Assembly: GCA_041664265.1 (NCBI GenBank)
Contig: JBAYLD010000004.1
Span: 33,470-97,469 of the forward strand
Reading direction: 5' to 3'
Origin: Minisyncoccota bacterium
GTDB lineage: Bacteria; Patescibacteriota; Minisyncoccia; Phycocordibacterales; Phycocordibacteraceae
DNA: 64,000 nt
Part shown: positions 32,429 through 49,591 of the stretch, in pieces
Numbering within the stretch: position 1 is the stretch's first letter
How the letters are laid out: each line of letters opens with the position of its first letter
Position numbers and translations under genes: made by a program
Notes under the pieces: generated by a model
What the model saw: the letters and a program-made list of their open reading frames with translations, nothing else
What the model was told of the DNA's origin: nothing
Database searches by the model: none

Positions 32429-32474
32429 TTACATAGGGCTGCCCTATGTAAGCCCGTAAGGTGTCACCTTACGG
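32429..32474. repeat. PAL-B (ttacatagggctgccctatgtaa) followed by PAL-A (ccgtaaggtgtcaccttacgg)
   Basis: Both are perfect palindromes. The downstream aagtgataagat box precedes the next ATG. Confidence 0.85.
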
Positions 32475-32739: not shown

Positions 32740-32838
32740 TACATAGGGCTGCCCTATGTAGGCAAGTTGTTTAGTGAGCACGGGTAGTAAATCCGTAAGG
32801 TGTCACCTTACGCAGAGCCGTAAGGAAACACCTTACGG
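32740..32838. repeat. PAL-B (tacatagggctgccctatgta) + PAL-A (ccgtaaggtgtcaccttacg) + variant PAL-A (ccgtaaggaaacaccttacgg)
   Basis: Three palindromes lie in about 100 bp. The aagtgataaaat box precedes the next ATG. Confidence 0.85.
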
Positions 32839-33098: not shown

Positions 33099-33103
33099 TA
33101 AAT

Positions 33104-33142
33104 CCGCAAGGTGACACCTCGCGGCGAGGTGTCACCTTGCGG
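33104..33142. repeat. PAL-A2: a 39-bp perfect palindrome ccgcaaggtgacacctcgc-g-gcgaggtgtcaccttgcgg
   Basis: The reverse complement of the left 19 nt equals the right 19 nt exactly. Confidence 0.9.
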
Positions 33143-33196
33143 ACACAGACACAGAGCCATGGGTTCAAATGTTTTTTGTTTCATACCTTGAAATAG

Positions 33197-34129: not shown

Positions 34130-34150
34130 CCGTAAGGTGACACCTTACGG
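34130..34150. repeat. PAL-A perfect copy: ccgtaaggtgacaccttacgg
   Basis: Identical to the copy inside prmC. Confidence 0.85.
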
Positions 34151-39036: not shown

Positions 39037-40806
39037 GTGTGGATGACACAAGGCGAGGCGCTCACCATATTGAAGACGGGTGCGAACGTATTCCTCACCG
39101 GCGAGCCCGGAAGCGGCAAGACGCACACGATAAATGAGTTTGTTGCGTGGTTGCGATCATCAGGCATCGAGCCTTCGGTGACCGCAGCGACGGGGATCGC
39201 GGCGACGCACGTGAGCGGCATGACGCTCCACTCTTGGAGCGGCATCGGCATCAGCGAGTCGCTCTCGCGGGCTGATGTAGATCGCATCGCGAGCAGGGAG
39301 CATATCGCGAAGCGCTTAACGAAAGCCAAAGTGTTGATTATCGAGGAGATCTCCATGCTGTCGGCGGCGACGTTTGAGATGGCAGACAAGGTGTGCCGCG
39401 AAGTGCGACGCAGCGACCAGCCCTTTGGTGGGCTGACGGTGATTCTCGTAGGGGACTTCTTCCAGCTCCCGCCCGTGTCGCGTCGAGGCGATGTTGAATT
39501 CGCCTATGCGTCAAAACTTTGGCGCGAATTGAATCCGATCACCTGTTACCTCACCGAACAATATCGGCAGGATGATGCGGCGTTTCTCGATGTGCTCTCG
39601 GCGATACGGTCGGGCACGGTTGAAGAGTTGCACTATGAGCATCTCACTTCGCGACAGGTCGCCAAGGATCCGTTAACAGCCGAATGCCAAGGTCGGACCT
39701 TGGAGAACTCAATACCCAAACTGTTTTCGCACAATGCGGATGTCGATCGCATCAATGCCGCTGAGCTCGCCAAGCTCCCGGGTAAAGCGAGAAGCTTCTC
39801 TATGAGCTCGAAGGGTAAGGACTCGATGGTTGAAGGCCTGAAGCGCGGCTGCCTCTCGCCAGAAATCTTGGAGTTGAAGGAGGGCGCGGCGGTCATGTTC
39901 ACCAAGAATTCGCCGCAGGGGAAGTTTGTGAATGGCACGCTTGGCGTTGTCATCGATTGGAGCTTCGATGGTGCGCCGGTTATCGAAATTCGCAGCCCTT
40001 CGACTGGTTCGACAAGCTCACCGCAAGCAAGCTCAGGGCATCGTCTCCGCGTAACCGCAGAGACTATGGAGTGGCAGCTCGAAGAACAGGGCAAGGTGAA
40101 GGCGAGCATCACACAATATCCGCTCCGGCTCGCCTATGCGATGACGGTGCACAAGAGCCAGGGCATGAGCATGGACGCGGCGATTATGGATCTCTCAAAG
40201 GCGTTTGAATATGGACAAGGATATGTCGCGCTCTCGCGCGTGCGGCGGCTCTCGGGCGTGTATCTCACCGGTCTCAACGCGCGTGCGCTTGAGGTGCATC
40301 CGGAGATCCTGAAAAAAGATAAGGACTTCCGCGCCGCCTCAGAGGCGGCGCGCGATGCATTCGCCGAAATGCCTGAAGCAGAAGTAGAAGGGATGCAGAA
40401 GAAGTTTGTGAAGGCGATGGGCGGAGCATTTATGGACCCACGCACGAAACACGAGGGGATTAAGGGACTTCGTAAGTCCCTATCTGATAGGGACTTACGA
40501 AGTCCAAACATTCCGGGAAGATTAGCCGAGACGCTCCAAGCCGCGCGAGACGCGAAGAGTTTGAAACAGGTAGCAAAAGAGCGCGGACTCACCGCGAGCA
40601 CTATCGTGAAGCATCTGGAAGAGTTGGCGGAGATGGGGAAGCTCGCCCGAGCCGACTTCGCACACCTCGTGCCGATGGATATCATCGGCGAGATCCACGA
40701 GGCGCTCGCAGAGAACAAAGACGGCCGCCTCTCGCCAATCTTCCACGCTCTCAAAGGCCGTCACTCGTTTGAAACCATCCGCCTCGTCCGCCTCATGCGC
40801 GATTAG
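39037..40806 (+). CDS. PIF1/RecD-like SF1B DNA helicase with a C-terminal HTH-like domain
   Basis: Walker A GEPGSGKT, and the linker-tail context. The helicase body is followed by a helix-rich tail. Confidence 0.8.
   Translation: MWMTQGEALTILKTGANVFLTGEPGSGKTHTINEFVAWLRSSGIEPSVTAATGIAATHVSGMTLHSWSGIGISESLSRADVDRIASREHIAKRLTKAKVLIIEEISMLSAATFEMADKVCREVRRSDQPFGGLTVILVGDFFQLPPVSRRGDVEFAYASKLWRELNPITCYLTEQYRQDDAAFLDVLSAIRSGTVEELHYEHLTSRQVAKDPLTAECQGRTLENSIPKLFSHNADVDRINAAELAKLPGKARSFSMSSKGKDSMVEGLKRGCLSPEILELKEGAAVMFTKNSPQGKFVNGTLGVVIDWSFDGAPVIEIRSPSTGSTSSPQASSGHRLRVTAETMEWQLEEQGKVKASITQYPLRLAYAMTVHKSQGMSMDAAIMDLSKAFEYGQGYVALSRVRRLSGVYLTGLNARALEVHPEILKKDKDFRAASEAARDAFAEMPEAEVEGMQKKFVKAMGGAFMDPRTKHEGIKGLRKSLSDRDLRSPNIPGRLAETLQAARDAKSLKQVAKERGLTASTIVKHLEELAEMGKLARADFAHLVPMDIIGEIHEALAENKDGRLSPIFHALKGRHSFETIRLVRLMRD
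40465..40505. repeat. 41-bp perfect palindrome ggacttcgtaagtccctatc-t-gatagggacttacgaagtcc, in-frame inside the helicase coding sequence
   Basis: Encodes KGLRKSLSDRDLRS between the helicase core and the C-terminal domain. Confidence 0.85.
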
Positions 40807-40815
40807 CAGTCACGT

Positions 40816-41582
40816 GGGGTTTCCGAAATCCTTCAATTCTTCATGAAGAATTATTCAAGATCAATCTTTTCTGGGTTATCGAGTTCTGAATCTTTAAGGA
40901 AGTCAATAAGTTCCTTGCCATAATTGCCGAAGACCTCGCTGAAGAAAGACTTTGTGAGTATGGAAGGAAAGTTTCTTCGGCCGGTATAATCGAGCAGGCT
41001 ACTCCAGCGGTATGTAGAAAGATGTTCCAAAGCTTTATTCATGTCCGCAATGCCACCTTTGTTACGGATGCGCCAGTCCTGGGCACCCTCAAGATAATCA
41101 AGCGGGTTTAGATGCAAATAGTGGAGGATATATAGAAAGTGCGGTTCATGTTCAATCAATATCCTTTTCGTGTGCCCTTGGAATAGAGTCCCTTTTCGCT
41201 CGTAGCGTTCGTTAAAGTAATTCGCATAACCGACATTAATTTTTCTGAGGAACAAACTGACACCACCCTCGACGCGCTCAGAGAGCAGGAGATGGTAATG
41301 ATTTTTCATCAGAGTCCATCCGTGAATGTCCACCAATAGCTCGCGCTCTTTTCTAAATGAAGGGTTTCCGAAACCCTTCATTCCCGATGGGTCAAAGAGG
41401 CGAGACATGTTCTCGGCAGGGGCGGTGTCATTGAATTCGTAGAGATTGTGCACAAAGCGCGCATAATCTTGAGAATCAAGAAATAATTTTCTCCCGTCGA
41501 CGCCCTTATTTAATACATGCCACAGCTCCACCCCCTCATGATACATGAAGGGTTTACGAAACCCTTCAATTCCTCATGAAGG
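40816..41582 (-). mobile_element. REPIN-like unit: a RAYT gene flanked by direct copies of a roughly 30-bp element carrying the PAL-C hairpin GAAGGGTTTCSKAAACCCTTC. A third copy sits inside the coding sequence.
   Basis: Copies at 40816..40850 (degenerate), 41356..41382 (perfect 12-bp stem with a ccg loop) and 41547..41582. Confidence 0.6.
40851..41546 (-). CDS. REP-associated tyrosine transposase (RAYT; IS200/IS605 TnpA-like Y1 HUH transposase)
   Basis: HUH motif HYHLLL, LFQGHTKRILIEHE and HYLHLNPL match the RayT and IS200 TnpA layout. The gene is flanked by palindromes. Confidence 0.7.
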   Translation of the reverse strand: MYHEGVELWHVLNKGVDGRKLFLDSQDYARFVHNLYEFNDTAPAENMSRLFDPSGMKGFGNPSFRKERELLVDIHGWTLMKNHYHLLLSERVEGGVSLFLRKINVGYANYFNERYERKGTLFQGHTKRILIEHEPHFLYILHYLHLNPLDYLEGAQDWRIRNKGGIADMNKALEHLSTYRWSSLLDYTGRRNFPSILTKSFFSEVFGNYGKELIDFLKDSELDNPEKIDLE

Positions 41583-41677
41583 TGTGGAAAATGATGGATA
41601 TCGTAGGTCCATCATCTAAGAATATAAAAAAAGAAGGACCCCGTACCAATAATCGGTACGAGGTCAAGGCTTCAGAT

Positions 41678-42262
41678 TCAACTTTTGCACACTGCAGCGG
41701 GGAAGTTTCCGTCAAATTCCTCATCGAGCCATGTAATGCTTGCACCCCAAGACTCGTTATCGCTGTGCCAAAGGAGACCACGAACACATAAATCTCCTCT
41801 TTTTACATTGCGATAGGTTGTGCCCCAGAAGCACACATACTTACCTTTCCATTCATCAGGGATGAGATGCGGGTGATCAAGTAAATAATCAAGAACGTTT
41901 GCGTTAAGGATCGTTTTCCCCGTACCCTTGAGCTCCCATTTGAGTGTTACCCCATCCAGGGATTTGCCGTTCTTTTGCCCATCGGCATAGAAGAGCTCAA
42001 CCTTGGACGGATCCCAGACAAATGAATCATCACTCCGGTGTTCTTCGACTACATGGCCTTGAGGAGCAGAGAAGTTGAGAGCGTTACAGTCTACAGCGTG
42101 ATCAGCACCTGCGATAGACGCATATCCGAGTACAACTTCACGAACCTTGGCGAGGATGTCTCCTTCACAAAGTTTCTTGATTTCCTTGTTCGTCCAGTTT
42201 CCACGTCGAAACGCGGCCTTCAATTCTCCCGCTTGGTCAACATCGAGCATTAAGTTACTCAT
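41678..42262 (-). CDS. Hypothetical protein
   Basis: ATG at 42262 is preceded by an AGGAGA ribosome-binding site. No family recognised. Confidence 0.45.
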   Translation of the reverse strand: MSNLMLDVDQAGELKAAFRRGNWTNKEIKKLCEGDILAKVREVVLGYASIAGADHAVDCNALNFSAPQGHVVEEHRSDDSFVWDPSKVELFYADGQKNGKSLDGVTLKWELKGTGKTILNANVLDYLLDHPHLIPDEWKGKYVCFWGTTYRNVKRGDLCVRGLLWHSDNESWGASITWLDEEFDGNFPAAVCKS

Positions 42263-42526
42263 CGTTGTTCTCCTTTCTGCGACGGTGTTCATTACAGAAC
42301 GATGTCGCTATGCGCTGGCGGGTTCCACTGGATTTAGTGGTTTGCCACAGCAGGGAATGGCCCAGACGAGCCGCTTTCTGCTATGGCAAACGCAAGTTGA
42401 ATCTGTCAAAGAACTTACTGCTATTATACACGAAACTTATATACTGTCAAGCGTTTTGACAAGGTGCAGGGTGTTGAGTATGAAAATATGGCTTAAAATA
42501 TGGACTTTTGAGCACAAATATCAAGG

Positions 42527-49521: not shown

Positions 49522-49591
49522 AATGTCCAATAAAAATATCAAGGTCTCGCCTTGATAAACATGTCGGGACGTTTAACGTCCCGACATGGGC

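What the first reader, a model, noticed from the sequence alone, without database searches (positions are those of the whole stretch)
40816..41582. REP-associated tyrosine transposase (RAYT) flanked by its own palindromes, with a third copy inside its own ORF
The 231-aa protein has the HUH motif (HYHLLL) and the Q..R.W.H.I / Y..NP blocks of RayT and IS200 TnpA.

Both ends of the gene carry direct copies of ATGARGAATTGAAGGRTTTCGKAAACCC, which contains the hairpin GAAGGGTTTCSKAAACCCTTC. A perfect copy (aatgaagggttt-ccg-aaacccttcatt) lies in-frame within the coding sequence, encoding MKGFGNPSF.

This is the classic REPIN architecture, and it gives a plausible mobilising enzyme for the palindromic repeat families scattered through the window. 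The RAYT/REP association has mostly been described in Proteobacteria. Its presence in this lineage, with coding-sequence insertions, is notable.
Basis: partly seen in the sequence, partly recalled or inferred. Interest (0 to 1): 0.7.

Follow-up and report, generated by a model that had tools for sequence, protein, structure and literature searches.

The report
Hairpin-flanked RayT-like gene with internal hairpin
A single-copy, transposase-like gene of an ultra-small groundwater bacterium (Patescibacteria) carries the same short DNA hairpin before its start, after its stop and in-frame inside its own coding sequence; related genomes show that this three-hairpin layout is conserved across the gene family and that the hairpin sequence changes together with the gene.

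Summary
ORF 40851..41546 (-) encodes a Y1/HUH protein with NHYH and Y-x3-NP motifs. Its fold matches IS608, ISDra2 and TnpAREP transposases, but profile scores fall just below the curated cut-offs. A perfect 27-nt palindrome lies in-frame at codons 55-63. A near-identical hairpin abuts the first ATG. The 3' copy is decayed and no longer folds.

PAL-C occurs nowhere else in the 64-kb window.

In 79 related Patescibacteria loci nearly every homologue has hairpins at the same three positions. Arms are usually identical within a locus and differ between loci by compensatory changes. Two reading phases are used, so selection acts on the nucleic acid, not the peptide. Paralogues of 25-46% identity carry their own unrelated hairpin sets.

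The gene sits in a conserved housekeeping neighbourhood, so it is not an insertion sequence. Family-specific hairpins, often as inverted doublets, also occur elsewhere, including in-frame inside housekeeping genes with presence/absence variation.

Best reading: a REPtron-like RAYT system, new for this phylum and for a subclass-2.1-like protein, whose intragenic hairpin is an ancient fixed feature. I rate it a new variant of a known kind.

The parts
40851..41546 (-). RayT-like Y1/HUH gene, 231 aa from the first ATG. The probable true start is GTG at 41531, giving 226 aa.
   Evidence: ORF list. Pfam Y1_Tnp E 1.6e-4. NCBIfam REP_Tyr_transpos E 3.4e-6. Identical to NCBI 'MAG: transposase [Candidatus Paceibacterota bacterium]', 226 aa. 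The fold search returns only IS608/ISDra2/TnpAREP/IS200 transposases at the top.
41292..41300 (-). HUH motif (H83-Y84-H85 in N-H-Y-H-L-L-L)
   Evidence: Read. Both His are invariant in 21 and 54 homologues.
41103..41120 (-). Y-L-H-L-N-P, the Y-x3-NP motif carrying the presumed catalytic Tyr143
   Evidence: Read. Y, N invariant and P nearly so. This is the class 2 TnpAY1 signature in PMC6006769, Table 1.
41356..41382 (.). Internal hairpin: perfect palindrome AATGAAGGGTTTC-C-GAAACCCTTCATT, in frame (codons 55-63, MKGFGNPSF), in the low-confidence loop between helix A and strand 2
   Evidence: DNA fold -11.2 kcal/mol, z -5.95. Loop residues 40-60 have pLDDT below 50. Homologues carry a hairpin at the same place.
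41546..41568 (.). 5' hairpin TGAAGGGTTT-ACG-AAACCCTTCA. Its foot overlaps the first in-frame ATG (41546-41544).
   Evidence: DNA fold -9.1 kcal/mol, z -5.29. 68 hairpins fall between -60 and -1 of the start in the 72 homologous loci with complete flanks.
40814..40834 (.). 3' copy of the hairpin, 17 nt after the stop codon. It is decayed, with 3 mismatches, and no longer folds.
   Evidence: 3 mismatches. (-0.4 kcal/mol, z +1.15). Homologues have an intact hairpin centred about 15 nt after the stop.
40817..40848 (.). 32-nt direct repeat, copy at the 3' end of the gene (half of the hairpin plus CTTCATGARGAATT on the sense strand)
41550..41581 (.). 32-nt direct repeat, copy at the 5' end of the gene
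   Evidence: 91% identical to 40817-40848
41591..41615 (.). Second hairpin upstream of the gene, from another family of the same class (ATGATGGA...TCCATCAT). That family is the cognate one in several related loci.
   Evidence: class scan. (-6.1 kcal/mol, z -5.47). The ATGATGGAC family is seen in L010, L014, L019, L056 and L057.

Best explanation
This is a REPtron-like unit. It consists of a vertically inherited, single-copy RayT-like Y1/HUH single-strand DNA endonuclease/transposase gene and its cognate short hairpin.

The hairpin is double-footed, about 25-29 nt, with consensus AATG-nn-GGAC-nT-[ACG/CGT]-An-GTCC-nn-CATT. It sits just upstream of the start, just after the stop, and in-frame inside the gene, in a disordered surface loop between helix A and strand 2.

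Inferred mechanism: the enzyme binds this hairpin when DNA is single-stranded, cuts near its foot by the HUH/Tyr mechanism, and copies or moves hairpin singlets and inverted doublets (REPIN-like) in trans. These land in intergenic sites and, when the length keeps the frame, in tolerant loops of housekeeping genes.

The intragenic copy is an ancient insertion that became fixed. It is kept identical to the flanking copies, either because the enzyme keeps acting on all copies (replacement or gene conversion), or because it serves as a self-recognition or autoregulatory site, or both.

Shown: the anatomy, its conservation, covariation, concerted evolution, dispersal, presence/absence variation, and the protein's fold and motifs.

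Inferred: binding, cleavage, mobilisation by this protein, and any role of the internal copy.
For: **Protein**
- HUH and Y-x3-NP are invariant.
- The top 27 Foldseek PDB hits are all Y1 transposases, including 4er8 TnpAREP.
- Profile hits to Y1_Tnp and REP_Tyr_transpos are weak.

**Architecture**
- In 72 homologous loci with complete flanks, hairpins pile up between -60 and -1 (68), between +150 and +179 (63) and between +660 and +749 (68). Background is about 1 per 30-nt bin.
- 56 of 80 loci show all three hairpins at strict thresholds.

**Concerted evolution**
- The 18 arm bases of the internal and flanking copies are identical in 42 of 59 (5') and 39 of 56 (3') loci. The mean is 1.0 mismatch, against 7.4 between loci.

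**Covariation** (56 distinct internal hairpins)
- 94.2% of cells are paired; 10 of 12 pairs change on both sides.
- The covariation score is 0.645 against 0.155 for shuffles (0 of 500 reach it) and at most 0.14 when the partner is slid.
- Two reading phases are used (28 and 23 hairpins) and give unrelated peptides.

**Vertical inheritance**
- The neighbours are conserved: aldolase, transketolase, RecR.
- Hairpin distance tracks protein identity.

**Paralogues**
- Paralogues of 25-46% identity have their own hairpin sets.

**Dispersal**
- 13 family-specific copies lie in 476 kb of flanks, where chance predicts about 0.02.
- Inverted doublets lie inside CDSs.
- One transketolase loop is empty in 7 loci and holds a doublet or singlet in 6, which in at least 5 match or closely resemble the hairpin at that genome's own RayT gene. 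L069 and L070 have identical RayT proteins but differ in occupancy.
Against: - In this window PAL-C exists only at the gene itself. The genome-wide copy number for this genome could not be obtained, because the genome scan was saturated by an unrelated Chloroflexi repeat.
- Dispersed family-specific copies in relatives are sparse, about 1 per 37 kb, far below classical REP densities.
- The canonical unpaired 5' GT[AG]G tag is absent. Only 16 of 56 hairpins contain GT[AG]G, and there it is paired within the stem.
- The protein scores below the curated cut-offs for Y1_Tnp and for the RAYT equivalog. A family profile finds nothing in the PDB by sequence.
- The structure model is of low confidence, pLDDT 54.
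- By motif signature the protein resembles subclass 2.1, which was reported as not REP-associated.
- No biochemical evidence is available.
Confidence: 0.62

Rival explanations
1. The hairpins are chiefly regulatory elements of the gene's own expression, acting in the mRNA or on the DNA as operators. The 5' hairpin would mask the start region, the internal hairpin would pause or attenuate, and the 3' hairpin would stabilise or terminate. They would possibly be bound by the protein itself for feedback. The protein would be a domesticated hairpin-binding enzyme with a host function, and would not move repeats.
For: - The positions relative to start and stop are fixed across the family.
- In the window the first in-frame ATG lies in the foot of the 5' hairpin.
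- A promoter-like site at 41649-41621 would place both upstream hairpins in the 5' UTR. This match is not above chance.
- The gene is single-copy and syntenic.
- PAL-C is absent elsewhere in the window.
Against: - Mismatches show no excess of G-T over A-C in the internal and 3' hairpins: 8 against 8 and 3 against 3.
- Loop orientation (ACG or CGT) flips freely at all three positions.
- There is no consistent T-tract after the 3' hairpin.
- The same hairpin families occur far from the gene, as inverted doublets inside unrelated CDSs and with presence/absence variation. A purely cis-regulatory role does not explain this.
- The two readings are not exclusive.
Confidence: 0.2
2. The whole unit (hairpin, gene, hairpin) is an autonomous IS200-like insertion sequence. 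The two flanking hairpins would be its left and right ends.
For: - A Y1 transposase-like gene is bracketed by subterminal hairpins and a 32-nt direct repeat.
- The locus lies between two convergent-end genes, and the surrounding 2 kb has somewhat lower GC: 0.50 against 0.55-0.57.
Against: - There is one copy in 64 kb.
- Homologues at 58-62% identity keep the same housekeeping neighbours while their hairpins differ.
- Paralogues within a locus are divergent (25-60% identity), not identical copies.
- The Tyr motif is Y-x3-NP, not the Y-x3-Q of IS200 TnpA.
- No tnpB is present.
- Left and right hairpins are the same sequence, and a third sits inside the gene.
Confidence: 0.05
3. The palindromes are generic genome-wide hairpins, such as terminators or sites of another DNA-binding protein. 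They would lie near this gene by chance or for reasons unrelated to its product.
For: The window holds other palindrome families of similar shape in intergenic positions. A strict class scan finds 10, against 0.17 expected.
Against: - Family-specific hairpins are present three times per RayT gene, against 13 in 476 kb elsewhere.
- They change in step with the protein.
- Each paralogue has its own family.
Confidence: 0.03

Closest known systems
REPtron: RAYT/TnpAREP gene flanked by its cognate REPs (E. coli, Pseudomonas; Nunvar 2010 PMC2817692; Bertels & Rainey 2011 PMC3116915; Ton-Hoang/Messing 2012 PMC3479197)
   Same: - Single-copy Y1/HUH gene with a Y-x3-NP Tyr motif, vertically inherited.
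- The same hairpin on both sides of the gene.
- Each paralogue has its own hairpin family.
- Dispersed copies and inverted doublets elsewhere.
   Different: - The host phylum is Patescibacteria.
- The hairpin is a nearly perfect palindrome with a symmetric ATG/CAT foot and no conserved unpaired GT[AG]G.
- Dispersed copy number is low.
- A hairpin is fixed inside the gene.
- The protein scores far below the NCBIfam RAYT cut-off and has FQ instead of WQ.
TnpAY1 subclass 2.4 (Bertels group 4; Cyanobacteria, Bacteroidetes): 'double-foot' REPs and REP insertions inside the tnpAREP gene (Quentin et al. 2018, PMC6006769)
   Same: REP copies lie inside the enzyme's own gene without breaking the frame, in a peripheral loop. 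The hairpins are symmetric, double-footed ones.
   Different: [quoted passage not shown] Here the hairpin lies at one fixed site N-terminal to HUH, throughout the family and its distant paralogues.
- The motif signature here is NHYH / FQ / Y[LI]HLNP with a WSS tail. Subclass 2.4 has NH[IFV]H / WQ / YIxNNP.
TnpAY1 subclass 2.1 (Bertels group 1, 'TIRYT')
   Same: The motif signature NH[YF]H, FQ, Y[IV]HLNP, a C-terminal tail with the SS motif, and a length of about 230-240 aa all match.
   Different: - Subclass 2.1 was reported to have no REP-like sequences nearby; some members have long terminal inverted repeats. Here hairpins are always present.
- No DnaA_C/HTH tail was detected by Pfam.
- Membership was judged from motifs only, not from a phylogeny.
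Rickettsia palindromic elements (RPE) and intragenic REPs (Di Nocera et al. 2013, PMC3733652)
   Same: Short palindromic repeats are inserted in frame in housekeeping genes of a reduced genome and are tolerated in surface loops.
   Different: Here a cognate enzyme gene is identifiable and itself carries the repeat. The elements are much shorter: 25 nt singlets and about 54 nt doublets.
IS200/IS605 TnpA with subterminal hairpins
   Same: The Y1/HUH fold, recognition of DNA hairpins (inferred), and a hairpin next to the start region.
   Different: It is not multi-copy or mobile as a unit, has no tnpB, has Y-x3-NP instead of Y-x3-Q, and has identical ends.

Membership tests
Y1 HUH transposase superfamily (TnpAY1, Pfam PF01797) | HUH motif and catalytic Tyr on a beta-alpha-beta-beta-alpha-beta-alpha core | tested here: met
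   NHYH and Y-x3-NP are invariant. The model's secondary-structure order fits the core, and the top Foldseek hits are only Y1 transposases, with E about 1e-4 and target-normalised TM 0.5-0.6. The model's pLDDT is only 54.
Y1 HUH transposase superfamily (TnpAY1, Pfam PF01797) | Score above the Pfam gathering threshold | tested here: not met
   22.2 bits against a cut-off of 23 for this protein. Some close homologues, and all listed members of the second subfamily, carry precomputed PF01797 hits.
RAYT / TnpAREP (TnpAY1 class 2) | Y-x3-NP Tyr motif (class 2 signature, PMC6006769) | tested here: met
   Y143-L-H-L-N147-P148; Y and N invariant, P nearly so.
RAYT / TnpAREP (TnpAY1 class 2) | Gene flanked by cognate hairpin repeats (REPtron) | tested here: met
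   The window has an intact 5' hairpin and a decayed 3' copy. In 72 homologous loci, 68 hairpins fall upstream and 68 downstream of the gene, and their arms are usually identical to each other.
RAYT / TnpAREP (TnpAY1 class 2) | Low copy number, vertical inheritance, divergent paralogues each with its own repeat family | tested here: met
RAYT / TnpAREP (TnpAY1 class 2) | Cognate repeat dispersed in many copies through the same genome | tested here: inconclusive
   No PAL-C copies lie outside the locus in this 64-kb window. Relatives have 13 copies in 476 kb of flanks. The rest of this genome could not be searched.
RAYT / TnpAREP (TnpAY1 class 2) | Conserved 5' GT[AG]G tetranucleotide at the hairpin foot | tested here: not met
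   PAL-C has GAAG at that position. Only 16 of 56 distinct hairpins contain GT[AG]G, always paired within the stem. The conserved features are an ATG/CAT foot and the G12-C24 and T16-A20 pairs.
RAYT / TnpAREP (TnpAY1 class 2) | NCBIfam equivalog NF047646 score at or above the cut-off | tested here: not met
   27 bits against 80.
RAYT / TnpAREP (TnpAY1 class 2) | Hairpin-specific ssDNA binding and cleavage by the protein | not testable with these tools
   Needs biochemistry.
REPIN (two REPs in inverted orientation forming a larger hairpin) | Inverted doublets of the cognate hairpin, dispersed in the genome | tested here: inconclusive
   There is no PAL-C doublet in the window. Relatives have abutting inverted doublets with a 28-nt offset: L011 5404/5432, L031 14825/14853, L069 14151/14179, L200 10723/10746. 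The window has a doublet of another family at 40465-40505.
TnpAY1 subclass 2.4 | Motifs NH[IFV]H / WQ / YIxNNP; REP insertions between HuH and Y | tested here: not met
   The motifs here are NHYH / FQ / YLHLNP, and the hairpin lies N-terminal to HUH.
TnpAY1 subclass 2.1 | Motifs NH[YF]H / FQ / Y[IV]HLNP with an SS tail, and no REP nearby | tested here: inconclusive
   The motif signature matches, but hairpins are present, unlike the published description. No phylogeny with reference members could be built.
IS200/IS605 insertion sequence | Multi-copy mobile unit; Y-x3-Q motif; distinct left and right ends; often tnpB | tested here: not met

The most novel reading that the evidence does not exclude
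The hairpin inside the coding sequence is not a passive hitch-hiker. It would be a selected cis-element that makes the enzyme's gene a member of the repeat population it services.

The enzyme would recognise its own gene at three sites. That would couple its expression, or the homogenisation of its target sequence, to its own specificity.

This would explain why position and structure are kept across a very large Patescibacteria-wide radiation of RayT-like genes (2,654 clusters at E<=1e-10), and across paralogues with unrelated hairpins, while the sequence co-evolves with the protein.

It would be a built-in enzyme-target co-evolution device. It would also give a natural 'specificity code' data set for Y1 enzymes.
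Probability: 0.3. Interest if true: 0.8.

Novelty: new variant of a known kind. Interest (0 to 1): 0.62.

Why it matters
REP/RAYT systems are known mainly from Proteobacteria and a few other phyla, and what they do remains debated. Four points stand out here.

- **Reduced genomes.** The system appears in highly reduced Patescibacteria genomes, where any repeat is costly.
- **A subclass thought to be REP-free.** The protein type carries the motif signature of a subclass reported as not REP-associated.
- **A near-universal rule.** The enzyme's own gene carries the target hairpin at a fixed site.
- **Many natural enzyme-hairpin pairs.** Dozens of distinct pairs are seen here, with compensatory stem changes, several pairs per genome, and insertion hot spots inside housekeeping genes that show presence/absence variation.

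This makes three questions directly testable:
- How do Y1 enzymes read hairpins?
- Are REP-like elements copied by their RAYT?
- Is the in-gene copy an autoregulatory or self-homogenising device?

It also warns annotators that short 'conserved' peptides in these proteomes can be translated palindromes.

Tried and rejected
- **Genome-wide count of PAL-C.** I scanned genome contigs with GAAGGGTTTNNNAAACCCTTC. Only L144 and L176 were of the Patescibacteria type, so the copy number in this genome remains unknown.
- **Sequence profile of the family against the PDB.** No hit at E<=1. Fold comparison was needed instead.
- **AlphaFold model.** From 54 close homologues the mean pLDDT is 54. I used it only for topology and for a Foldseek search.
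- **Rfam on 40300-42000.** Only spurious miRNA matches on the helicase doublet.
- **Promoter/terminator scan.** Nothing above chance. One promoter-like site lies upstream of both 5' hairpins.
- **RNA-specific signal.** I looked for G-U against A-C bias among stem mismatches. There is none in the internal and 3' hairpins.
- **IS reading.** Rejected on synteny and copy number.
- **Literature.** Searches for REP/RAYT in CPR/Patescibacteria found no description.
- **Covariance model.** I considered one for the hairpin class and used a transparent descriptor scan with simulated controls instead.
Full report
**1. What is in the window**

ORF 40851..41546 on the minus strand encodes 231 aa. It lies between the 3' end of a PIF1-like helicase gene (39037..40806, +) and the 3' end of a 204-aa gene (41678..42292, -).

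The protein has N-H-Y-H-L-L-L (HUH, 41292-41300) and Y-L-H-L-N-P (41103-41120). NCBI holds the identical protein as a 226-aa 'MAG: transposase [Candidatus Paceibacterota bacterium]' on a 104,889-bp contig. Most homologues also begin at the residue that is codon 6 here (GTG 41531).

A 32-nt direct repeat brackets the gene, 40817-40848 and 41550-41581, at 91% identity. A perfect palindrome, AATGAAGGGTTTC-C-GAAACCCTTCATT, lies at 41356-41382 in frame (MKGFGNPSF). A near-identical hairpin, TGAAGGGTTT-ACG-AAACCCTTCA, lies at 41546-41568, and its foot overlaps the first ATG.

With up to three mismatches the 21-mer occurs at three sites, all here, against 0 expected by chance.

Folded as single-stranded DNA, the internal copy gives -11.2 kcal/mol and the 5' copy -9.1 kcal/mol (z about -5 to -6). 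The 3' copy (40814-40834) is decayed and does not fold (-0.4 kcal/mol, z +1.15). A second hairpin of another family (ATGATGGA...TCCATCAT, 41591-41615) lies further upstream.

- The 3' copy is a relic.
- The 'Q..R.W.H.I' block is not present as stated.
- PAL-C is not elsewhere in the window.

**2. What the protein is**

Profile hits are weak. Pfam Y1_Tnp scores 22.2 bits (cut-off 23, E 1.6e-4). NCBIfam REP_Tyr_transpos scores 27 bits (cut-off 80). A profile of 21 homologues finds nothing in the PDB by sequence.

An AlphaFold model from 54 homologues has low confidence (pLDDT 54). Its element order is strand, helix, long loop, two strands carrying HUH, helix, strand, helix carrying the Tyr motif. 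Its top 27 Foldseek hits in the PDB are all Y1 transposases: IS608, ISDra2, TnpAREP 4er8 and IS200.

The histidines, Y143 and N147 are invariant, and P148 nearly so. In the classification of Quentin et al. 2018 (PMC6006769), Y-x3-NP marks class 2, the RAYT-like proteins. The combination NHYH / FQ / Y[LI]HLNP with a WSS tail and about 230 aa matches the second signature given for subclass 2.1 (Bertels group 1). That subclass was reported to lack REP-like sequences. This placement rests on motifs only.

**3. The architecture is a family rule**

A scan of JGI metagenome contigs returned 79 loci with homologues of 55-75% identity, mostly from groundwater. Named homologues are all Patescibacteria.

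Mapping the MKGFGNPSF position onto each locus shows a perfect or near-perfect hairpin at the same place in almost every gene, but with very different stems.

In the 72 loci with complete flanks, hairpins with at least 9 of 11 pairs cluster in three places:
- 68 between -60 and -1 of the start;
- 63 between +150 and +179;
- 68 between +660 and +749, that is, just after the stop.

The rest of the CDS holds about one per 30-nt bin.

Within a locus, the 18 arm bases of the internal and flanking copies are identical in 42 of 59 (5') and 39 of 56 (3') cases. The mean is 1.0 mismatch, against 7.4 between loci.

On 56 distinct internal hairpins (centre-anchored, gapless alignment A3), 94.2% of cells are paired and 10 of 12 pairs change on both sides. 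The covariation score is 0.645, against 0.155 in shuffles (0 of 500 reach it) and at most 0.14 with slid partners. Only G12-C24 and T16-A20 are invariant. The consensus is AATG-nn-GGAC-nT-ACG-An-GTCC-nn-CATT. Because the alignment was anchored on the hairpin centre, it leans towards the structure. The position histogram and the within-locus identities are independent of that choice.

The hairpin is read in two different phases (28 and 23 distinct sequences). These give unrelated peptides: M[RM]D[FIL]VxPSF and NVG[RP]xxS[YH]IR. The encoded segment falls in the model's low-confidence loop, residues 40-60. Selection is therefore on the nucleic acid, not on the peptide.

Loop orientation (ACG or CGT) flips at all three positions. 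Stem mismatches show no G-T over A-C bias in the internal and 3' hairpins. This gives no support for a purely RNA-level structure.

**4. Not an insertion sequence**

The window has one copy.

Loci whose proteins are only 58-62% identical to the query, and which carry different hairpin families, share the same neighbours. A class-I fructose-bisphosphate aldolase lies directly downstream in 20 loci, together with transketolase subunits. The clade nearest the window shares RecR and a DEAD-box helicase.

Hairpin distance follows protein identity: 0 mismatches at 90% identity or more, 3.4 at 80-89%, 4.4 at 70-79% and 7.6 below 70%. Gene and hairpin are inherited and diverge together.

**5. Paralogues and a second subfamily**

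Several loci hold a second or third paralogue 7-9 kb away, at 25-46% identity. Each has its own set of hairpins at the equivalent positions, with unrelated sequences:
- TGTCAAACAC-CGA-GTGTTTGACA at L068 17179, 17433 and 17923;
- ATGCCAAGGG-CGC-CCCTTGGCAT at L069 17101, 17625 and 17885.

The subfamily of the latter is again Patescibacteria. All its listed members carry PF01797, and JGI names some 'REP element-mobilizing transposase RayT'.

Two further members were fetched:
- L200 has an internal hairpin at +160, an inverted doublet just after the stop, and a further copy inside a signal-peptidase gene. No upstream hairpin was found within 200 nt.
- L202 has an internal hairpin at +169 and one at +785.

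A full HMMER scan of 1.84 billion cluster representatives gives 121 clusters at E<=1e-30, 2,654 at E<=1e-10 and 12,796 at E<=1e-3.

**6. Dispersal and mobility**

Outside the genes, the 476 kb of flanks contain 13 family-specific copies (18 arm bases, up to 2 mismatches). Chance predicts about 0.02 (my estimate). That is roughly one per 37 kb.

Three of these occurrences are abutting inverted doublets with a 28-nt offset, forming a longer palindrome, REPIN-like. All three lie in frame inside genes: a PrmC-like methyltransferase in L011 and the transketolase N-subunit in L031 and L069.

One transketolase loop, between RMD and VYC, varies across 20 loci:
- empty in 7 (L070, L036, L032, L033, L007, L018, L057);
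- a doublet in 4 (L031, L069, L072, L041);
- a singlet in 2 (L059, L025);
- other fillings in the rest.

The inserted hairpin matches or closely resembles the family at that genome's RayT gene in L031, L069, L072, L059 and L025, but not in L041. L069 and L070 have identical RayT proteins yet differ in occupancy. This indicates turnover at a hot spot.

A PAL-C-type hairpin also occurs in another Parcubacteria MAG with no RayT-like gene within the 8-kb locus (L144).

In the window itself a strict class descriptor finds 10 hairpins, against 0.17 expected. Most are intergenic at gene ends. A 41-nt doublet of another family sits in frame in the helicase gene at 40465-40505, folding at -21.2 kcal/mol.

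**7. Interpretation**

The anatomy is that of a REPtron: a domesticated Y1 enzyme gene bracketed by its cognate hairpin. To this are added divergent paralogues each with its own family, low-copy dispersed singlets and inverted doublets, and tolerated in-frame insertions in other genes. I infer that the enzyme recognises the hairpin in single-stranded DNA and copies or moves it.

The intragenic copy is best seen as an ancient insertion into a tolerant loop. It is kept in step with the flanking copies by continued enzyme action, by selection as a self-recognition or autoregulatory site, or by both.

The main rival reading is that the hairpins are chiefly regulatory elements of the gene. It is compatible with the fixed positions but does not explain dispersal. 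The two readings may both hold.

**8. Comparison with what is known**

REP copies inside the enzyme's own gene, and double-footed REPs, were described for TnpAY1 subclass 2.4. There the insertions are variable and lie between HuH and Y, and the motifs differ.

Intragenic REPs and Rickettsia RPEs are precedents for in-frame palindromes in housekeeping genes.

Full-text searches found no description of RAYT/REP systems in CPR/Patescibacteria.

The following are new relative to those sources:
- the phylum;
- the subclass-2.1-like protein type;
- the fixed intragenic site conserved across deep paralogues;
- the three-fold concerted evolution;
- the non-GTAG symmetric foot.

**9. Limits**

- There is no biochemistry.
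- The model is of low confidence.
- Subclass placement was done by motif only.

Noticed in passing
window 40465-40505 (inside helicase CDS 39037..40806, +): A perfect 41-nt palindrome made of two inverted hairpins of another family (AGGGACTTCGTAAGTCCCT). It lies in frame and encodes GLRKSLSDRDLRSP, between the helicase core and the C-terminal HTH_40 domain. As DNA it folds at -21.2 kcal/mol. A third copy of this family is at about 58665.
   Followed up: partly
window about 6490, 16249, 46926, 46952, 49574, 58665 (hairpin centres): Further hairpins of the same structural class but other sequence families, for example CATGTCGGGACGT-TTA-ACGTCCCGACATG at 49560-49588. Most lie between gene ends. 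Together with the three at the RayT-like locus and one other, a strict class scan finds 10 in the window against 0.17 expected. Their cognate RayT paralogues, if any, are outside the window.
   Followed up: partly
window 6115-6137, 32454-32474, 32794-32812, 33103-33143, 34130-34150; 32429-32451, 32740-32760: Two other palindrome families, CCGTAAGGTG-N-CACCTTACGG and TTACATAGGGC-T-GCCCTATGTAA. They are concentrated in and next to the low-GC stretch at 28-34 kb (GC 0.39-0.48, against about 0.55 elsewhere).
   Followed up: no
L080-L199 (genome-contig hits), e.g. L103 94-114: A widespread repeat in Chloroflexota/Anaerolineae MAGs, AGACCCGAAGGGTTT-nnn-AAACCCTTCGGGTCT, present on many contigs per genome. 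It shares the GAAGGGTTT core with PAL-C but has a different foot. In L199 a weak RayT-like match (25% identity, E 3e-6, 3543-3950) lies about 200 nt from one copy.
   Followed up: partly
L063, L071 and L068, transketolase N-subunit loop (RMD|VYC site): Instead of a hairpin, this loop holds a short tandem repeat in L063 and L071 (CCTACAA x4, encoding NLQPTTYNLQP). L068 has a similar low-complexity insert at the same hot spot.
   Followed up: no
window 41637-41665 (-): A terminator-like hairpin with a T-tract just after the 204-aa gene (41678..42292). It overlaps a promoter-like TTGGTA-17-TATATT site, which would place both upstream hairpins in the 5' UTR of the RayT-like gene. The match is not above chance.
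   Followed up: no
protein ids P0007, P0046, P0069, P0078, P0081, P0101: Gene callers often extend these genes upstream through the 5' hairpin. This gives spurious N-terminal extensions that repeat the internal hairpin-encoded peptide, for example MMDIVCPS upstream and MMDIRCPS inside in P0069.
   Followed up: partly
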